A stretch of DNA of 64,000 bases. Source: Stylophora pistillata. Its lineage: Eukaryota. Shown here in pieces: positions 39,001 to 48,000 of this stretch. Within the stretch, counting starts at the first letter, position 1. Each line of letters opens with the position of its first letter. Location: the NCBI RefSeq assembly GCF_002571385.2, contig NW_019217806.1:218982-282981 (forward strand), read 5' to 3'. Made by a program: the position numbers.

Positions 39001-42000
39001 TAGGAGTAACTGTCGATGAAAGTTTAACATGGTCACCACATTTGATGAATTTTAAAAGAGTTTCGCAAATAAGCTTAACTTATTAAGAAAATCAAGATTC
39101 TTACCCAAAAGTGTATTTGAGCAATTGTATTTCAGTGTTATTCTTCCTGGCGTCACTTATAGTTTTGTAACGTGGGCAAGCTGTTGTAATCTTGAGTTAT
39201 TTGGGGCGATTAAAAACTTCACAGCCCAGCGGCAAAGTTAATATATAATTTAAAGCAAGACACCTCCCATGACGACTCTCTGAAGATAGCTAAATGGCAC
39301 TCCTTAGATTATATTTATAAGACCAACCTGTTTAAGGTAGTACACGGAGCATACAATAATTTGCTACCAGAACAACTGTCCGATAGCATTATTGTTAAGA
39401 GGTCGAGTGGTGCGAAGTATTCATTAAGGGGGTCAGTTAATATTGTTATACCAAGATTTCAATCTCGCTATTTAGAACTTTCAGTAACTTATAAGAGGGG
39501 CTGTTCTTTGGAATACAATTACGTCTAAGAATGCAGACATTGTTCATGCTACACGAAAGAGCATAGATTCAAGATTAAGTAAGATCGTTGAAATAAAGAT
39601 TTTCATTTTAAGGTAACATCTGCTTCAACAGTTAATTTTTGTGATCAAGACTATTTTTATTTTTAATGATATCTTATGCACAGGCGGCCGAAGGAAAGTG
39701 CGAGGCGAGCGCGAGTCATGCGCGAGGAAGCGCAAGTCACACTTCGCGCTCACCTTGCACTTGTCTATGTTTGCCTGGAGAACGAAAACCAAATTACACC
39801 TGTTCTGGAGGCTATCACAGACTTCCTCAAGGAAAAGTTAAAGACAATAACAAGAAAAAATATTTAAGAGTACTGAGGTATTTGTCTGGAGCAATCTCCA
39901 TTTATCAAGTATCAAGGTGATTCCATAGACTGTCCTCTAACTTGGCATACTGTAACCATATTAATACATAAGTGGTGAAATAAGTAAAAATCTGAATATG
40001 TCAACAAGATGTATTTAATATCTTCTTAGATATCTATGTCTTAGATATGCTTGTGCACTCTGGGGAAATAACTGCGATGGTCTACTTTCTAAAAGAGTAA
40101 AATTACAAAACAAACCGGTTAGCATAATCAATAACATTCCTGTTGTGGAACCAATAACTCCTCATTATACTGCTTTTGAGACTTTTGAAAGTTCCTGACA
40201 TTGTCAAACTCAATACATCTTTACATCTTTATGACTATTTTAATGCTGACAAACATTCAAACTTAAATCTCCCGTTAGTGACCGAGCTACATGATTATGA
40301 CACTCAAAGTGTATCTTTGGAAAGAGGGACCACTATACCATTATAAAACTCAAGCACGTAAAAATATTTGGCCTTTTCGAGCGTCACGAACAATATTCAA
40401 ATTTTGTTCACGTTCACGCGAAATTTGAGACGATCACGTTTCACATAAAAATGAAGTCATATTCACGAATACATATTTTTACTTTCTTCTGGTCTTTACC
40501 AGTCTTAAGTGACTAAAGATGGCGAAATGACACATTTCATTTTTTCAAGGACTATTAGTGGTCTGTTTTCAGACTTAACGATCCTTATGAAGTCCTTTCG
40601 AGAATAATACGTACACTTTCAAAACAATTAAATGGCCGGGAATTCATCACGCAAACGAAAATTGTTCGCGAATCATTGTTTATTTAGGTCTTCATTCACG
40701 AGTCACGTTTAAATTAAAAAAATTAGTTCTCGTTGACATGAATAGATCTTATTTTTTATCACGATTCACCGATAAAGACAAAATCAAATCACGATTCAAA
40801 AGAAAAAATCGCGTTATCAGGTATAGTGTACCCTCTAGAAGGGTCGCACATCAACTGACCTTACATGGTGCTTAAATTTACATCACTTGAACCCTAGTCC
40901 CATCAGAATAAATACAAAACTGTTGGACAGAAGATTCTGTCCAACAGTTATGGGATACTAATATTAGAATAATATTCCTATATTTAAGCGGGAGAAGCCC
41001 AATAGAAAACTTTTCAAAGGAACATTTTTCTTGGTTTACTTTTCTCCGTGCTAATTAATGTCTTCCTTTGACCATGCGCTATTTACATATATTTGTCGTT
41101 TTAAGGTGTGATTCTTATTCCTTCTCTTCTATTTGTATCGCTTGTGTTTTACTATATCCAAAAATGTAGTCTTACGTGACGAGCATCTAACTAGATCGCT
41201 CTCTTATACCCTTCTCCCTTTTCTTTGTCTTTTTTTTTAAATTATTCAACAGGTTGTAGTTGTTGAAAAGGAGGAAATAAAAAATACTACTAATAAAATA
41301 CTAACTTCAAGCATTGAACTGCCTGATCACGTGATCAATAGGGGCCCTGCAAATCGGGCAAGGGTCCCCCCTTTGCTTGAGTACTTGTGCACAGGCCCAG
41401 CAACAACAGCAGTGTCCTGTGTCACCGTGGATCACGGTGGCATTTTTGGGTTGATCCATGCAAATGATGCACTTGGAATTGTCATCTGTATCTTCTGGAA
41501 AAGCAAGAGTGTTGCCTTTTTCTGTTACAAATGGCATCTGTGAAGCAGACTCACTGGATGGTGTTGGTGTTAAACGATCTCTAGTAACCCAAGGGTTCTC
41601 TTGTGGTTGTCGCCCTTCAAAACGGTGATGAGTTACTGATCATGAAAAAATGTACAAAATATCATGTGTATTATTAAGTTATGGAATAAACGAAGGTTTA
41701 GTGGTGAGTCTAGAGGTTCACATTGAAGCCCTGGGAAGATAATTGTGTTGTTCTTGGGCAAGACAATCTACTCTCATAATGTCTACTTCAAACCAAGAGT
41801 ACAAATGGGTCCTGGCAAAATATCAGGGGGGGGTCTAATAAAATGTGTATTATCCTATCTAGGAAGAGGGGAGGGGAGGGGAGGGAAGGGTAGCTCTGCC
41901 TGCAAGTGTATGAGCCACTAGGTGTGAGAGCAAACTTCCCCATTTTACCTTCAACGCATTTGAAAAGCATTGCTCATAGTGATAGCTAACCTTTCTTGAA

Positions 42001-45000: not shown

Positions 45001-48000
45001 GATGTGTCAACCACTTTAAGTTCATGAACATGGATAGGGTGCCTCTTGGGCTCGTTACAGCTACGACAAACATCAAAGTCACCGCAGGTTGGGCAGTGGT
45101 ATGAGAATGTTTCTCTCAATTCATCACTTGTCTTTTTGCACACATCGCACCGCCAAATTCCTCTATCATTTTGATAAACCGGCAGTCGGCTGGTTTCCAT
45201 GTAATACAGCTGATGCCGATGGATTAAGTTGTTTCCCAGATGTTGCATGTACATACAAGAATGGCACAGGTCAAAAGAACACAGTCTACAATGGAAGGGA
45301 AATGGACCCATTGTATCACTTTCAGAATTGCAGTGGTCACACTTCCACCGTCCTCCATATGCTTGGTACACTTCCAAAGGATCAACTTGCTCCAAGGGAT
45401 GTTCGTGAAGTGTAGAGAGCATCTTTTCACATTGCTTAATATAATTATGTTGATGGTTAAACACCTGCAAGGAACAATTTCCCATGAACAGGTCATTCTC
45501 ACAAGAAAATATGATTTATTAAATATTACAAACAAGGGATTTCACAAATGAAAGGATTTTTCCCCCTACTTTAGAGAATTCTCCCCTGTATTCTGACGGC
45601 CTGCAGTATTTTTTAATCCAAATCTATATAGAATATATTTGGTGTTTTTTGCACTTTTCTCCAGAATGTTTGGAAAAATTTGCATAAATCCTTAGTAGGC
45701 TTCAGAACTTAGGGAAGCGGTTCCAACTGACAAATTGAAATGGTTTGGTTCCAATCAAGTTAACCCGTATAAGATAAACAACATTTACTCATGATTCTCC
45801 ATTCCAACAACATCAAGAATTCTTACCTCATTGACTGTAATAATCACCTCCATCTTATCACAATAAAAATATGTCAATTCCTTGTTATTTTTCAATAAAC
45901 TTCTGTAGGACCTCACTAGTTAACAAATGGTTCTGTCAGTAATCACCAAATACACTGTATGTCTCGCTAAATTTGGACAGATTTGTGGTTATTATGAAGA
46001 TCATTTTTAGAATATTTCAGAATAATGCCTGTTTCAGAGCCTTACAAAAAGTAAAATAAAGAACTGAAATGTTCCAACCATCCATGGCGACAATATTTCA
46101 GTTTTAAAATGTCTTATTATGCGCAAAAAACCCCCTCTTTAGGGATGAACAGCAAATGTTTGTGCAACCCATTTGGCAAACTTCCAAACATTCACCATGG
46201 ATACTGCACCTTTAAAAAGCAAACTGATTTGCCAGAGACAAATAAAAATTGTAAACTTTTATGCAGAAAACAGTTGTAAGAGTCATGCAAACCAAAAATC
46301 ACATTTAGGGTCAGTCTCATATTTGCAGGATGGAATGCAGCTGTGAAAAACTACAACTTTCTACTATTTTTGCCAGAGCATAAACAAAAACAGTGCAATG
46401 AATTCATACAGGCAAGCAAGGTTTCAAAATACTCGACAAACTTGATGAAAGTTAAAAACATTCATTGGCTCACAAAAAGTAATTTAAAACATTTGCTTAA
46501 CCATGAACTAACATTTCAGAATACTTCCAGAGACAAAGAATCAATTTCTTAATTCCCTATTTTTTCTAATGGTCCAAAGGAATTAGCCCAACCATACTTT
46601 TTTGGCCGTGAAAATTTCATTTTCATTGAGGGATATAGTCATAAGATATCTTTAAAACTGAAACGTCATCAAGTATTTAAAAGAATGTTAATCATTCTTT
46701 CAGTCTGTCTGCTCCCTCTGATGCACTCATGCAACTCTAACTCAGTGATGCAATTAGCTCAGCTGCCTTTTAAGAAGTTGAAAAGAAGTTGTTCCTTCCA
46801 AATTATTTTCTGCTAGGAACCTCGATATCATGGACTTTGACTGGTGAGTACTGAGAATGTAGTCTCTGGTATGTCTACATGTAATAAATCGATAATTCAA
46901 TCGTAAGATGGAAAATTATATCTAAAATTCTTCACTTTTAGTTAAAGCAGTTTTATCATGGGGGGTAAAAACGCGCTGCAGTGACAGGATAACATGAATA
47001 AAATACAGCTGACTCCGTTTTCGTTTAAGACCGCACAACACTTACCGACAGTAAAGCGCTCACCAAATGTTATAATAAAATCATTATGCGAGTATAACGA
47101 GCAAAATTATTGTTCAGACGTAAGCGAGAATACGATTTAACCTCGGTTTTTCCAATCTAATTTCGAGTTGGATATTTAGAGTAAACCCTTCTACGTCTTA
47201 TCTTTACAGAATAACTGATGAATAAGTAGTTCTTGCAGAATTACATCGGTTGGCTAAGGGTGAGTTAAGAATTTCACTTGAGGTTATTAGTCGACCATCA
47301 CCAGTTGAAACAATTTATTATGTGTCTAAACTTGTTTCGTGTGCTTGGTATTGCAGTAGCTAAACAGAACCAAACCACCAATTTAGCTGACTAAAATAGA
47401 TTGCTGGTATTAGAGCGGAAGTCTGAAGACCAGGCAACAAAAATCCGTACGAGCCGAAACATACCGACCGCCATTTTAAAAACATTACCTCGCCTTTCAC
47501 CGACGCAAATGTTGCATCTTTTCCTTTGCTTTCTTTCTGGTGATTGTGGAGTGAAGATCATACCAAGTTTTAACTGCAGCAGGGATAGTAATTTCTTGGG
47601 ACGTGATGAATTGTAATTCCCGGAGGCTTGATACGATGAGTAATGGCGTAGGAAGTGTTCCGGGAGTACCCCTTACGATTGCCAACTCATTAGGGAGGGG
47701 TGGCCCCTGACAATATAAGCTACAAGTTAGTAAGCTTAAGAAATGAAAATATCGCTGCAATTGCTATGCGACTTAGGTGATGGCCAAAGAAAGTCAAACC
47801 TTAGCGCCTCCAGTTTCCTTTTATTCGACTTTTCCACCGTTGGACCTTACCTCGGGGAGAATTGTACCCTGGGGAATTGTGTAAATTACCATATAATACG
47901 TGTCGCGTCGGTTTTGAATGGTTATTCCCCTGTTTACCAATGCTAGTATTGGCAGCCGCTCTCGTGTTATTATACAAGCTTTTCTTAATGGAAAAATATG

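What the first reader, a model, noticed from the sequence alone, without database searches (positions are those of the whole stretch)
41307..45464. Four DC1/C1-like zinc fingers fused to an MDM2-type C2H2C4 RING
Seen: an intact spliced ORF with four HxHxL-x(13-17)-WxCDxC-x(9-14)-HCxxCxFDxCxxC repeats, a low-complexity linker and a terminal RING (CIIC...PKNA..IHGDTGH...C..CA..LK.R..PCPICR.PI). Established: that RING spacing (HGxTGH, C2H2C4, ending a few residues from the C-terminus) is characteristic of MDM2/MDM4. Tandem H.HPL..CD.C..C..C.FD repeats resemble DC1/C1-like domains best known from plants and protists, and also ZZ fingers. No p53-binding SWIB domain or acidic domain is visible. Inference: an uncharacterised E3 ligase that couples a multi-finger substrate or sensor array to an MDM2-class RING, and might heterodimerise with MDM2.
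Basis: partly seen in the sequence, partly recalled or inferred. Interest (0 to 1): 0.7.

Follow-up and report, generated by a model that had tools for sequence, protein, structure and literature searches.

The report
Coral zinc-finger ligase with MDM2-type RING
This is an intact coral gene for an uncharacterised ubiquitin ligase that joins four plant-like "DC1" zinc fingers to the unusual RING domain otherwise known from the p53 regulator MDM2, and the same design recurs in sea anemones, a jellyfish and some sponges.

Summary
A five-exon gene on the minus strand (45853 to 41307; 406 codons, all introns GT..AG with matching phases) encodes four tandem binuclear zinc fingers, a low-complexity linker and a C-terminal C2H2C4 RING.

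- **RING:** far closer to MDM2 (63 bits) and MDM4 than to any other solved RING (next 32 bits). It ends at the same residue as human MDM2.
- **Fingers:** DC1 (Pfam C1_2) type rather than canonical ZZ. The His pair leads, the best fold match in both models is the Arabidopsis DC1 structure 1v5n, and the profile aligns with a plant DC1 array.
- **Relatives:** the same architecture occurs in named proteins of stony corals, sea anemones, a scyphozoan and two homoscleromorph sponges. All are uncharacterised, and one is auto-named "Mdm4-like".

It is not an MDM2 orthologue. It has no SWIB, acidic or RanBP2 finger region, and its RING does not group with SWIB-bearing MDM2 RINGs. The same RING subtype is also attached to ankyrin, Kelch, UBR-box and MIB/HERC2 modules, including in protists, so it is not specific to MDM2/MDM4. 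Function is inferred, not shown. Heterodimerisation with MDM2 is untested.

The parts
45827..45853 (-).
   Evidence: ATG followed by a GTAAGA donor. It matches the N-terminus MEVIIRVSE of homologue P0001. Phase 0 joins it to E2.
44929..45464 (-). Coding exon 2: fingers 1 and 2, plus the His pair and first CxxC of finger 3
   Evidence: Acceptor ...ccttgcag and donor gtaagtga. Pfam C1_2 at 4.1e-13 and ZZ at 4.7e-6. 81% identical to P0001 and 89% to Stylophora LOC111342977.
45255..45407 (-). DC1-like finger 1 (HEH ... CHSC)
   Evidence: Coordinates. Model pLDDT is 91-95 over this stretch.
45057..45221 (-). DC1-like finger 2 (HRH ... CRSC)
   Evidence: Coordinates. It holds the best C1_2 stretch, residues 82-136 of the E2 reading.
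44929..45032 (-). DC1-like finger 3, first half (HVH ... CDIC ...), ending at the intron 2 donor
   Evidence: The intron splits a codon.
43124..44928 (-). Intron 2 (1805 nt), carrying reverse-transcriptase-like ORFs and a direct duplication on the plus strand
   Evidence: ORF list (43128-44493, plus strand; a YTDD motif is visible). Pfam gave no family at E<=0.001 for 43219-43599.
42876..43123 (-). Coding exon 3: second half of finger 3 (43075-43123) and finger 4 (42895-43050)
   Evidence: Splice sites. Pfam ZZ at 7.8e-6 and C1_2 at 0.002. 91% identical to P0001. Model pLDDT 86.
42236..42316 (-). Coding exon 4: low-complexity linker (ADETGPSPGHLGRNRGFDMSRTGLRT)
   Evidence: Splice sites and phase. 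tblastn with P0001 residues 270-293 gives 79% identity.
41307..41635 (-). Coding exon 5: rest of the linker, an acidic patch, the C2H2C4 RING (41310-41471) and the stop codon
   Evidence: Pfam zf-C3HC4_3 at 2e-11, 43.9 bits against a cut-off of 27. Best solved relative is MDM2 at 1.5e-16. Coordinates.

Best explanation
This is a real, conserved, single-chain RING ubiquitin ligase of a stony coral. I take the window for a scleractinian genome, not human. The nearest named relative is Stylophora pistillata.

The protein has about 406 residues. It carries four tandem binuclear zinc modules of the DC1 (Pfam C1_2) kind, whose C-terminal halves look ZZ-like. A linker of about 85 residues follows, flexible and low in complexity, ending in an acidic patch. 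The last domain is a C2H2C4 RING of the MDM2 subtype that closes the chain.

Shown here:
- the gene structure and the domain make-up
- conservation of all eight RING ligands
- conservation of the Arg after the last CxxC (MDM2 R479)
- the same chain end as human MDM2, with an aromatic residue at the Y489 position
- the same architecture in Anthozoa, a scyphozoan and homoscleromorph sponges

Inferred:
- The RING dimerises through its C-terminal tail, as MDM2 and IAP RINGs do, and activates a UBE2D-type E2~ubiquitin.
- The DC1 array is the substrate- or partner-binding end. I think it acts as a protein-protein scaffold, as proposed for plant DC1 proteins, rather than as a diacylglycerol sensor.
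- The linker lets the RING reach bound targets.

The protein is not an MDM2 orthologue. It shares with MDM2 a RING cassette that is also found on many other substrate-binding modules.
For: **Gene model.** Five exons, GT..AG introns, compatible phases, 406 codons. Homologues P0001 and P0002 hit E2, E3, E4 and E5 in order.

**Domains.** C1_2 at 49.9 bits (cut-off 26) and ZZ at 26.8 (cut-off 21.4) on E2. zf-C3HC4_3 at 43.9 (cut-off 27) on E5.

**RING.**
- Solved relatives: MDM2 1.5e-16 (63 bits), MDM4 3.2e-12, then MGRN1 1.1e-6, MUL1 6e-5 and IAPs at 3e-4 or worse.
- The ungapped alignment to the 491-residue MDM2 chain 8bgu_F (436-487 against 54-105 of a 109-residue reading) puts both chain ends at the same position. 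It equates C56/C59/H70/H75/C79/C82/C93/C96 with the MDM2 ligands, R97 with R479 and F107 with Y489.
- R479 and C449 matter for activity and dimer formation (PMC6465955, passages).
- The tail is 13 residues long in 60 of the 86 RING-bearing representatives.

**Fingers are DC1.**
- Of 24 fetched proteins with at least 3 fingers plus this RING, 20 have an HxH before finger 1 and only 2 have one after the last finger. ZZ has the ligand order CCCCCCHH (PMC4506424, passages).
- The Arabidopsis DC1 structure 1v5n is the best single-domain fold match for the E2 model (prob 1.00, rmsd 1.6 A over 60 columns, 30% identity). It ranks first for the E3 model (prob 0.99, TMq 0.51).
- The family profile aligns over 209 columns, four repeats in register, with an Arabis nemorensis DC1 protein (hhalign prob 96.7%, E 4e-10; HMMER E 4.4e-17).

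**Distribution.** Named full-architecture relatives are Oculina patagonica, Nematostella vectensis and Actinia tenebrosa, plus Sanderia malayensis, Oscarella lobularis and Corticium candelabrum, the last auto-named 'protein Mdm4-like'.

**One transcript.** Contigs of 1.3-3 kb encode fingers and RING without introns.
Against: - No activity, dimerisation or binding partner has been shown for any member.
- No transcript of the window's own species was seen.
- The Desmophyllum pertusum annotation splits the locus into a RING model (OS493_036859) and a ZZ-type model (OS493_036861).
- The representative P0001 (74 member sequences) diverges in its last residues and lacks the last Cys pair.
- All fold-search E-values are above 0.001 (0.041 and 0.076 for 1v5n). 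The structural case therefore rests on probability, rmsd and rank for a very small domain.
- By sequence, the only solved relatives of the fingers are ZZ domains, and weakly so (p300 at 0.0044, then CBP, dystrobrevin and KCMF1). On E3 alone, ZZ outscores C1_2.
- The residue at MDM2 C449 is Thr here. Its effect on dimer formation is unknown.
- Of the 150 best representatives, 62 have fingers only and 67 have the RING only. Many are fragments, but the modules may also exist apart.
Confidence: 0.65

Rival explanations
1. It is the cnidarian MDM2/MDM4 orthologue. An MDM gene lost its SWIB, acidic and RanBP2 parts, gained a finger array, and still controls the p53/p63-like protein.
For: MDM2 and MDM4 are by far the closest solved RINGs. 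NCBI names the Corticium member 'protein Mdm4-like'. Aberg et al. 2017 used the C2H2C4 motif as their criterion, and report that cnidarian MDM (Nematostella, Hydra, Acropora) lacks the p53-binding domain (PMC5543598, passages).
Against: - No SWIB or RanBP2 finger reaches its cut-off in the exons or in P0001 and P0002.
- In the RING tree, four MDM2-like RINGs form their own group (SH-aLRT 91) away from the window's anthozoan group (SH-aLRT 86). One of them, from Tubulanus, carries SWIB. One has a RanBP match below its cut-off. One is clustered with a Capitella fragment. The tree has only 56 columns, and 58 of its 99 inner branches are unresolved.
- The same RING subtype sits on ankyrin, Kelch, UBR-box and MIB_HERC2 proteins.
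- It also occurs in a cluster with a haptophyte member and in an amoebozoan protein.
- Cnidarian p53-family proteins are reported to lack the TAD that MDM2 binds (PMC5543598, passages).
Confidence: 0.12
2. The fingers work as ZZ domains. The protein would then be an N-degron or histone-tail reader joined to a RING, like other ZZ-plus-RING ligases.
For: Pfam ZZ is above its cut-off on E2 and E3. The weak sequence matches to solved structures are all ZZ domains, the best being the p300 ZZ solved with a histone H3 peptide. The Asp of CDxC and the Asp of FDxC are nearly invariant in the family. From recall, acidic residues at such places hold the peptide N-terminus in ZZ domains. CBP and p300 ZZ match the core of finger 4 over 37-40 columns.
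Against: The ligand order is HH then six Cys, not CCCCCCHH. The last finger has no trailing His pair in 22 of 24 proteins. DC1 beats ZZ in both fold searches and in Pfam on E2 and on the full-length homologues. A DC1 fold does not exclude peptide binding, so this rival concerns function more than classification.
Confidence: 0.15
3. The locus is a decaying or chimeric gene, broken up by the retroelement in intron 2, so the fingers and the RING no longer work together in this species.
For: Retroelement debris fills intron 2. A second, P0003-like RING exon lies 35 kb downstream with no fingers of its own. Desmophyllum carries split gene models.
Against: All five exons are open, with canonical splice sites and matching phases. 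Identity to relatives is 81-91% across E2, E3 and E5. All zinc ligands are intact.
Confidence: 0.05

Closest known systems
MDM2 / MDM4 (vertebrates), invertebrate Mdm
   Same: C-terminal C2H2C4 RING with the HGxTGH spacing. I counted 24 of 52 identical residues in the alignment. The Arg equivalent to R479 is kept, there is an aromatic at the Y489 position, and the chain ends at the same residue.
   Different: No SWIB/p53-binding domain, no acidic region and no RanBP2 finger. Thr stands at the C449/N448 position. The RING does not group with SWIB-bearing Mdm RINGs. The N-terminal four-fifths of the protein are unrelated.
Plant DC1 (divergent C1, Pfam C1_2) proteins, e.g. the Arabidopsis PDI-like protein of PDB 1v5n, and BNP and VLG
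   Same: Tandem arrays with the His pair leading and then three CxxC pairs. Best fold match. Profile homology over four repeats. Plant members are proposed to be modular scaffolds (bioRxiv 10.1101/2022.03.17.484815, passages).
   Different: The host is an animal, although that preprint calls DC1 exclusive to plants. The array is fused to a RING. The last ligand block reads FDxCxxC as in ZZ. From recall, the plant consensus has a His in that block.
ZZ-domain E3 ligases and adaptors (PRT1, KCMF1, MIB1/2, ZSWIM2, HERC2, p62); the names beyond those are recalled
   Same: A binuclear treble-clef finger or fingers combined with a ubiquitin-ligase domain. Pfam ZZ is above its cut-off.
   Different: The ligand order is shifted, with the His pair first. 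There are four copies in tandem. The RING is of the MDM2 subtype at the extreme C-terminus.
Amoebozoan finger-array RING proteins (Thecamoeba quadrilineata P0062; Flabellula baltica P0074)
   Same: Several ZZ/C1_2-type fingers followed by a C-terminal RING. In P0062 the RING is C2H2C4 with a 12-residue tail.
   Different: The His pair trails the fingers, which is the ZZ order. P0074 has a C3HC4-pattern RING. Identity to the coral family is only 27-29%.

Membership tests
MDM2/MDM4 family | N-terminal SWIB/p53-binding domain | tested here: not met
   There is no SWIB hit at E<=1 on E2, E3 or E5, nor at E<=0.1 on full-length homologues P0001 and P0002. The same library does find SWIB in the Tubulanus Mdm2-like protein P0143.
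MDM2/MDM4 family | Central acidic region and RanBP2-type zinc finger | tested here: not met
   Zn_ribbon_RanBP scores only E 0.11 (12.2 bits, cut-off 27) on E3, inside finger 4. It is absent from P0001 and P0002. A short acidic patch precedes the RING, but there is no long acidic domain.
MDM2/MDM4 family | C2H2C4 RING at the extreme C-terminus with a tail of conserved length | tested here: met
   All eight ligands align with MDM2, and both chains end at the same position. The tail is 13 residues.
MDM2/MDM4 family | RING groups with those of SWIB-bearing Mdm proteins in a phylogeny | tested here: inconclusive
   The tree has 111 rows and 56 columns. The Mdm-like group (SH-aLRT 91) excludes the window's RING, but 58 of 99 inner branches are unresolved and there is no outgroup.
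Pfam zf-C3HC4_3 (PF13920) RING | Profile match above the gathering score | tested here: met
   43.9 bits against a cut-off of 27, covering profile positions 2-49 of 49.
DC1 / Pfam C1_2 (PF03107) | Profile match above the gathering score | tested here: met
   E2 scores 49.9 bits against a cut-off of 26. E3 alone scores 18.8, below the cut-off. Full-length homologues score 50.9 and 39.3 bits.
DC1 / Pfam C1_2 (PF03107) | Ligand order with the His pair leading, then three CxxC pairs, in every repeat | tested here: met
   All four fingers of the window show it. A leading HxH occurs in 20 of 24 family proteins and a trailing one in 2 of 24. Which residues bind zinc was not measured.
DC1 / Pfam C1_2 (PF03107) | Fold like the solved DC1 domain and sequence homology to plant DC1 arrays | tested here: met
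   1v5n scores prob 1.00 at rmsd 1.6 A and ranks first at prob 0.99, though the E-values are 0.041 and 0.076. hhalign to the Arabis DC1 protein gives prob 96.7%, E 4e-10.
ZZ (PF00569) | Profile match above the gathering score | tested here: met
   26.8 and 26.1 bits against a cut-off of 21.4.
ZZ (PF00569) | Ligand order CCCCCCHH, with the His pair after the Cys pairs (PMC4506424, passages) | tested here: not met
   Finger 4 has no His pair after CHAC. Only 2 of 24 family proteins have one after the last finger.

The most novel reading that the evidence does not exclude
The C2H2C4 'MDM-only' RING is an old eukaryotic cassette. In cnidarians and homoscleromorph sponges it is borne by a DC1-finger ligase. 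That ligase, rather than a true MDM2, would be what surveys have scored as 'cnidarian MDM without a p53-binding domain'. It would act as the MDM2 counterpart of these animals, controlling their p53/p63-like protein or another stress regulator through the DC1 array. MDM2 itself would have arisen when SWIB and RanBP2 modules were joined to this cassette.
Probability: 0.12. Interest if true: 0.8.

Novelty: new variant of a known kind. Interest (0 to 1): 0.5.

Why it matters
Two textbook-style statements are too narrow on this evidence.

- The plant literature calls DC1 domains exclusive to plants (bioRxiv 10.1101/2022.03.17.484815, passages).
- The p53 literature calls the C2H2C4 RING unique to Mdm2/Mdm4 and has used it to identify MDM genes (PMC6372010 and PMC5543598, passages).

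Here a four-DC1 array sits in front of that RING in corals, anemones, a jellyfish and sponges. The RING subtype also occurs on many other modules, including in protists.

This matters for how 'MDM' genes are called in early-branching animals, and so for the story of how the p53-MDM2 axis arose. It also gives a tractable test case, the Nematostella LOC5514038, for what DC1 domains bind. The gene itself is otherwise an ordinary, uncharacterised RING ligase.

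Tried and rejected
- **RING homodimer prediction.** Two copies of residues 48-109 of the E5 reading gave 'no answer' (score 0.19, mark 0.32). The tool did not use my alignment and folded no controls. This counts neither for nor against binding.
- **Sequence search of solved structures with E3.** It gave only chance-looking hits (designed beta-propellers, Nup153) beside a weak BIG ZZ match.
- **RING tree.** Too few columns to decide sister groups. Rows without my C2H2C4 regex match, or with a tail under 11 residues, were left out. 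That left 110 of the proteins numbered up to P0201, plus the window.
- **Search for further finger exons.** I used a family HMM on all 2179 stop-to-stop frames of at least 20 aa. It found only E2, E3, E5 and the RING exon at 6257-6502.
- **Literature.** One search was badly posed and says nothing. None of its 10 listed papers holds PF03107. Searches returned 0 papers.
- **Pfam PF26235.** It is listed for most finger-bearing homologues in the precomputed annotation, but I could not name it. No scan against the local copy reported it, and no paper mentions it.
- **Joined model.** I did not search or fold the spliced model joined together. Exons were searched one by one, and full-length questions were put to natural orthologues.
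- **Not checked.**
  - The closed collections metagenome contigs and viral contigs.
  - Genome contigs, which holds bacteria and archaea only.
  - Any eukaryotic genome collection, since none was on hand.
  - The supplement of PMC5543598 that lists which cnidarian sequences were called MDM.
- **N runs.** Those at 1549-1694, 3499-3797 and 52195 were left as they are.

Full report
**What is there**

The window is 64 kb at 38.6% G+C, with three N runs that I left alone. It is full of retroelement fragments. I take it for a stony-coral genome, not human. The best named match of the main exon is Stylophora pistillata LOC111342977 (89% over the exon), and the other named relatives are corals and sea anemones.

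The finding lies on the minus strand. Reading the sequence and locating the junctions gives five coding exons:

| Exon | Coordinates |
|---|---|
| E1 | 45827-45853 |
| E2 | 44929-45464 |
| E3 | 42876-43123 |
| E4 | 42236-42316 |
| E5 | 41307-41635 |

Every intron is GT..AG. The phases (0, 2, 1, 1) fit, and the sum is 1221 nt, which is 406 codons plus a stop. Its right edge (45464) is a splice acceptor, not the start. The start is a 9-codon exon (MEVIITVNE, donor GTAAGA) found, matching MEVIIRVSE at the N-terminus of homologue P0001.

tblastn with P0001 and P0002 hits E2, E3, E4 and E5 in order and on one strand. I did not search or fold the joined model. Full-length questions were put to natural orthologues.

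The four repeats read H-x-H-x-L, then 15, 17, 15 and 15 residues, then W-x-C-D-x-C, then 12, 13, 12 and 13 residues, then H-C-x2-C-x(1-2)-F-D-x-C-x2-C. The third repeat is split by intron 2.

Pfam scores:
- E2: C1_2 at 4.1e-13 (49.9 bits, cut-off 26) and ZZ at 4.7e-6 (26.8 bits, cut-off 21.4)
- E3: ZZ at 7.8e-6 and C1_2 at 0.002
- E5: zf-C3HC4_3 at 2e-11 (43.9 bits, cut-off 27)

No SWIB and no RanBP2 finger reaches its cut-off, either here or in full-length P0001 and P0002.

**The RING**

Against all solved structures, the E5 reading matches MDM2 best (1.5e-16, 63 bits), then MDM4 (3.2e-12). After a wide gap come MGRN1 (1.1e-6, 32 bits), MUL1, and the IAPs and MYLIP (19-24 bits).

The alignment is ungapped. 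Against the 491-residue chain 8bgu_F it runs 436-487 to 54-105 of a 109-residue reading, so both proteins end at the same position. All eight ligands coincide. The Arg after the last CxxC matches R479, Phe107 falls on Y489, and Thr67 falls on C449 (MDMX N448). Passages of PMC6465955 tie C449 and R479 to dimer formation and E3 activity. PMC5039725 (passages) notes that tags next to the C-terminal RING kill MDM2 activity.

**The RING subtype is not peculiar to MDM2/MDM4**

I searched 1.84 billion representatives with the Oculina orthologue P0002. This gave 2296 hits at E<=1e-3, 471 at <=1e-10 and 32 at <=1e-30. I classed the 150 listed hits with my own regular expressions:

| Class | Count |
|---|---|
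| Fingers plus C2H2C4 RING | 19 (16 with two or more fingers) |
| RING only | 67 |
| Fingers only | 62 |
| Neither | 2 |

Among the 86 RING-bearing hits the tail is 13 residues in 60, 12 in 12 and 11 in 4. Many hits are fragments.

I scanned 40 finger-less RING proteins with Pfam. All 40 have zf-C3HC4_3. Beside it, 3 have ankyrin repeats, 3 have Rho_N, 2 have MIB_HERC2 plus SH3_15, and one each has Kelch, a UBR-box, SWIB or a RanBP finger.

Names, where sources give them:
- The SWIB protein is Mdm2-like, from the nemertean Tubulanus.
- The MIB_HERC2 cluster includes a Chrysochromulina parva (haptophyte) member.
- P0062 is from the amoebozoan Thecamoeba.

PMC6372010 and PMC5543598 (passages) call this motif unique to Mdm proteins. 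The latter paper used it as an inclusion criterion.

A RING-only tree of 111 rows and 56 columns is mostly unresolved, with 5 of 99 inner branches starred and 58 open. Four Mdm-like RINGs group together (SH-aLRT 91). The window's RING sits in a 20-row anthozoan group (SH-aLRT 86), and the two groups are not joined. Orthology to MDM2 is thus unsupported, though not excluded.

**The fingers**

Both C1_2 and ZZ match, so I asked which reading the anatomy fits. ZZ has the ligand order CCCCCCHH (PMC4506424, passages). Here the His pair precedes each finger, and nothing follows the fourth. Across 24 fetched proteins with at least three fingers and this RING, 20 have HxH before finger 1 and only 2 have it after the last finger. 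Those two are the amoebozoan-type P0062 and P0073, which are therefore ZZ-ordered.

AlphaFold models of the E2 reading (28-row alignment, pLDDT 84.6) and the E3 reading (33 rows, pLDDT 86.0) were compared with the PDB.
- For E2, the only compact single-domain match is the Arabidopsis DC1 domain 1v5n (prob 1.00, rmsd 1.6 A, 60 columns, 30% identity, E 0.041, rank 4). It ranks behind HPV E6 matches with rmsd 9-14 A.
- For E3, 1v5n ranks first (prob 0.99, TMq 0.51, rmsd 3.1 A, E 0.076). It is followed by a KKT2 central domain, Munc13 and RAF C1 domains, and CBP and p300 ZZ at ranks 12-13 over only 37-40 columns.
- No hit in either search reaches E<=0.001, as expected for so small a domain, so this is supporting evidence only.

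Independently, the family profile aligns over 209 columns, four repeats in register, with an Arabis nemorensis DC1 protein (hhalign prob 96.7%, E 4e-10; HMMER E 4.4e-17).

Against this, the only solved relatives found by sequence are ZZ domains, and weakly so (p300 at 0.0044, CBP, dystrobrevin, KCMF1). I conclude the fingers are DC1-type modules whose last block (FDxCxxC) looks ZZ-like.

**Distribution and expression**

Full-architecture, source-named relatives:
- Oculina patagonica LOC144659637 (411 aa), Nematostella vectensis LOC5514038 (379 aa) and Actinia tenebrosa LOC116302283
- the scyphozoan Sanderia malayensis, and the homoscleromorph sponges Oscarella lobularis and Corticium candelabrum, the last auto-named 'protein Mdm4-like'

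All are uncharacterised. Several unnamed homologues come from contigs of 1.3-3 kb that carry the whole reading frame, so they are spliced transcripts holding fingers and RING together.

Two points count against. Desmophyllum pertusum has separate RING and ZZ-type gene models. The representative P0001 loses the last Cys pair at its C-terminus.

Passages of PMC5543598 state that MDM is absent from Porifera, and that cnidarian MDM (Nematostella, Hydra, Acropora) lacks the p53-binding domain. Whether those entries are this family I could not check, because supplements are closed. I found no paper that combines 'DC1 domain' with Mdm2, PF03107 with PF13920, or 'Mdm2-like' with coral and E3 ubiquitin (0 papers each).

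**How it most likely works**

Shown: the anatomy, the intact ligands, the conserved R479- and Y489-equivalent residues and chain end, and conservation across non-bilaterian animals.

Inferred: a tail-mediated RING dimer activates an E2~ubiquitin. The DC1 array binds the substrate or an adaptor. The linker of about 85 residues, with its acidic end, gives reach. Plant work proposes DC1 proteins as modular scaffolds (bioRxiv 10.1101/2022.03.17.484815, passages), so I favour protein binding over lipid sensing. The ligand is unknown. The dimer prediction gave no verdict and counts neither way.

**Verdict**

This is a real gene, and an uncharacterised variant of the RING-ligase kind. The inference that the RING is MDM2-specific is too narrow, and the idea that it pairs with MDM2 is untested.

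It is of moderate interest for two reasons. It places DC1 arrays in early-branching animals. It also shows that the C2H2C4 RING is a shared cassette, which bears on how MDM genes are called outside bilaterians.

Noticed in passing
window 6320-6493 (-) and 7771-7908 (-): There is a second, variant RING exon (…CMMCCERKRDVVFLHEDLSIRHSCCCSECAARLNSCPICR…), and upstream of it a heptad-like exon. They match residues 315-372 (71%) and 270-317 (58%) of P0003, a paralogue-type protein with four fingers and this other RING. Both exons have splice acceptors in phase 1, the same phase as the donors of E3 and E4. A family HMM found no finger exons between 8 kb and 41 kb. This is either a truncated tandem paralogue or an alternative 3' end of the same gene.
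   Followed up: partly
window 43128-44500 (+), inside intron 2: Reverse-transcriptase-like frames (a YTDD motif is visible), followed by two near-identical copies of a frame of about 450 nt (…KIDLLK.SRFLPKN.LLKFYFS…). This looks like LINE debris with a local duplication. Pfam found nothing at E<=0.001 for 43219-43599.
   Followed up: partly
window 53698-53976 (-): An exon of a Cys-loop ligand-gated ion channel (Neur_chan_memb, E 6.2e-24). Neighbouring minus-strand frames at 53087-53377 and 59589-59930 gave no Pfam hit.
   Followed up: partly
window 11432-11821 (+), 51568-52194 (-), 56383-56979 (+), 57259-57744 (+): Retroelement pol fragments. RVT_1 scores 4.8e-15, 2e-12 and 4e-12, and RT_RNaseH scores 1.1e-12. 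The 54.4-59 kb stretch looks like one LTR-type element with gag-like, RT, RNase H and integrase-like frames.
   Followed up: partly
window 12280-12612 (+), 21272-21673 (-), 51008-51310 (+), 52503-53021 (+): A dispersed repeat whose frame reads …RTLFIPLIYSCFSRCHVPTNNVAPFSAFKS…NARNVSFYNRN…, seen four times in the ORF list. I did not identify it.
   Followed up: no
proteins P0005, P0009, P0010: These are short homologues (202-217 aa) that carry only the RING. The usual end …RQFNA is followed by a further 32 residues, giving a tail of 45 instead of 13. They could be read-through or alternative transcripts in other corals.
   Followed up: no
window 1549-1694, 3499-3797, 52195: Runs of N (146, 299 and 1 bases). 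They were left as they are. None touches the gene.
   Followed up: no
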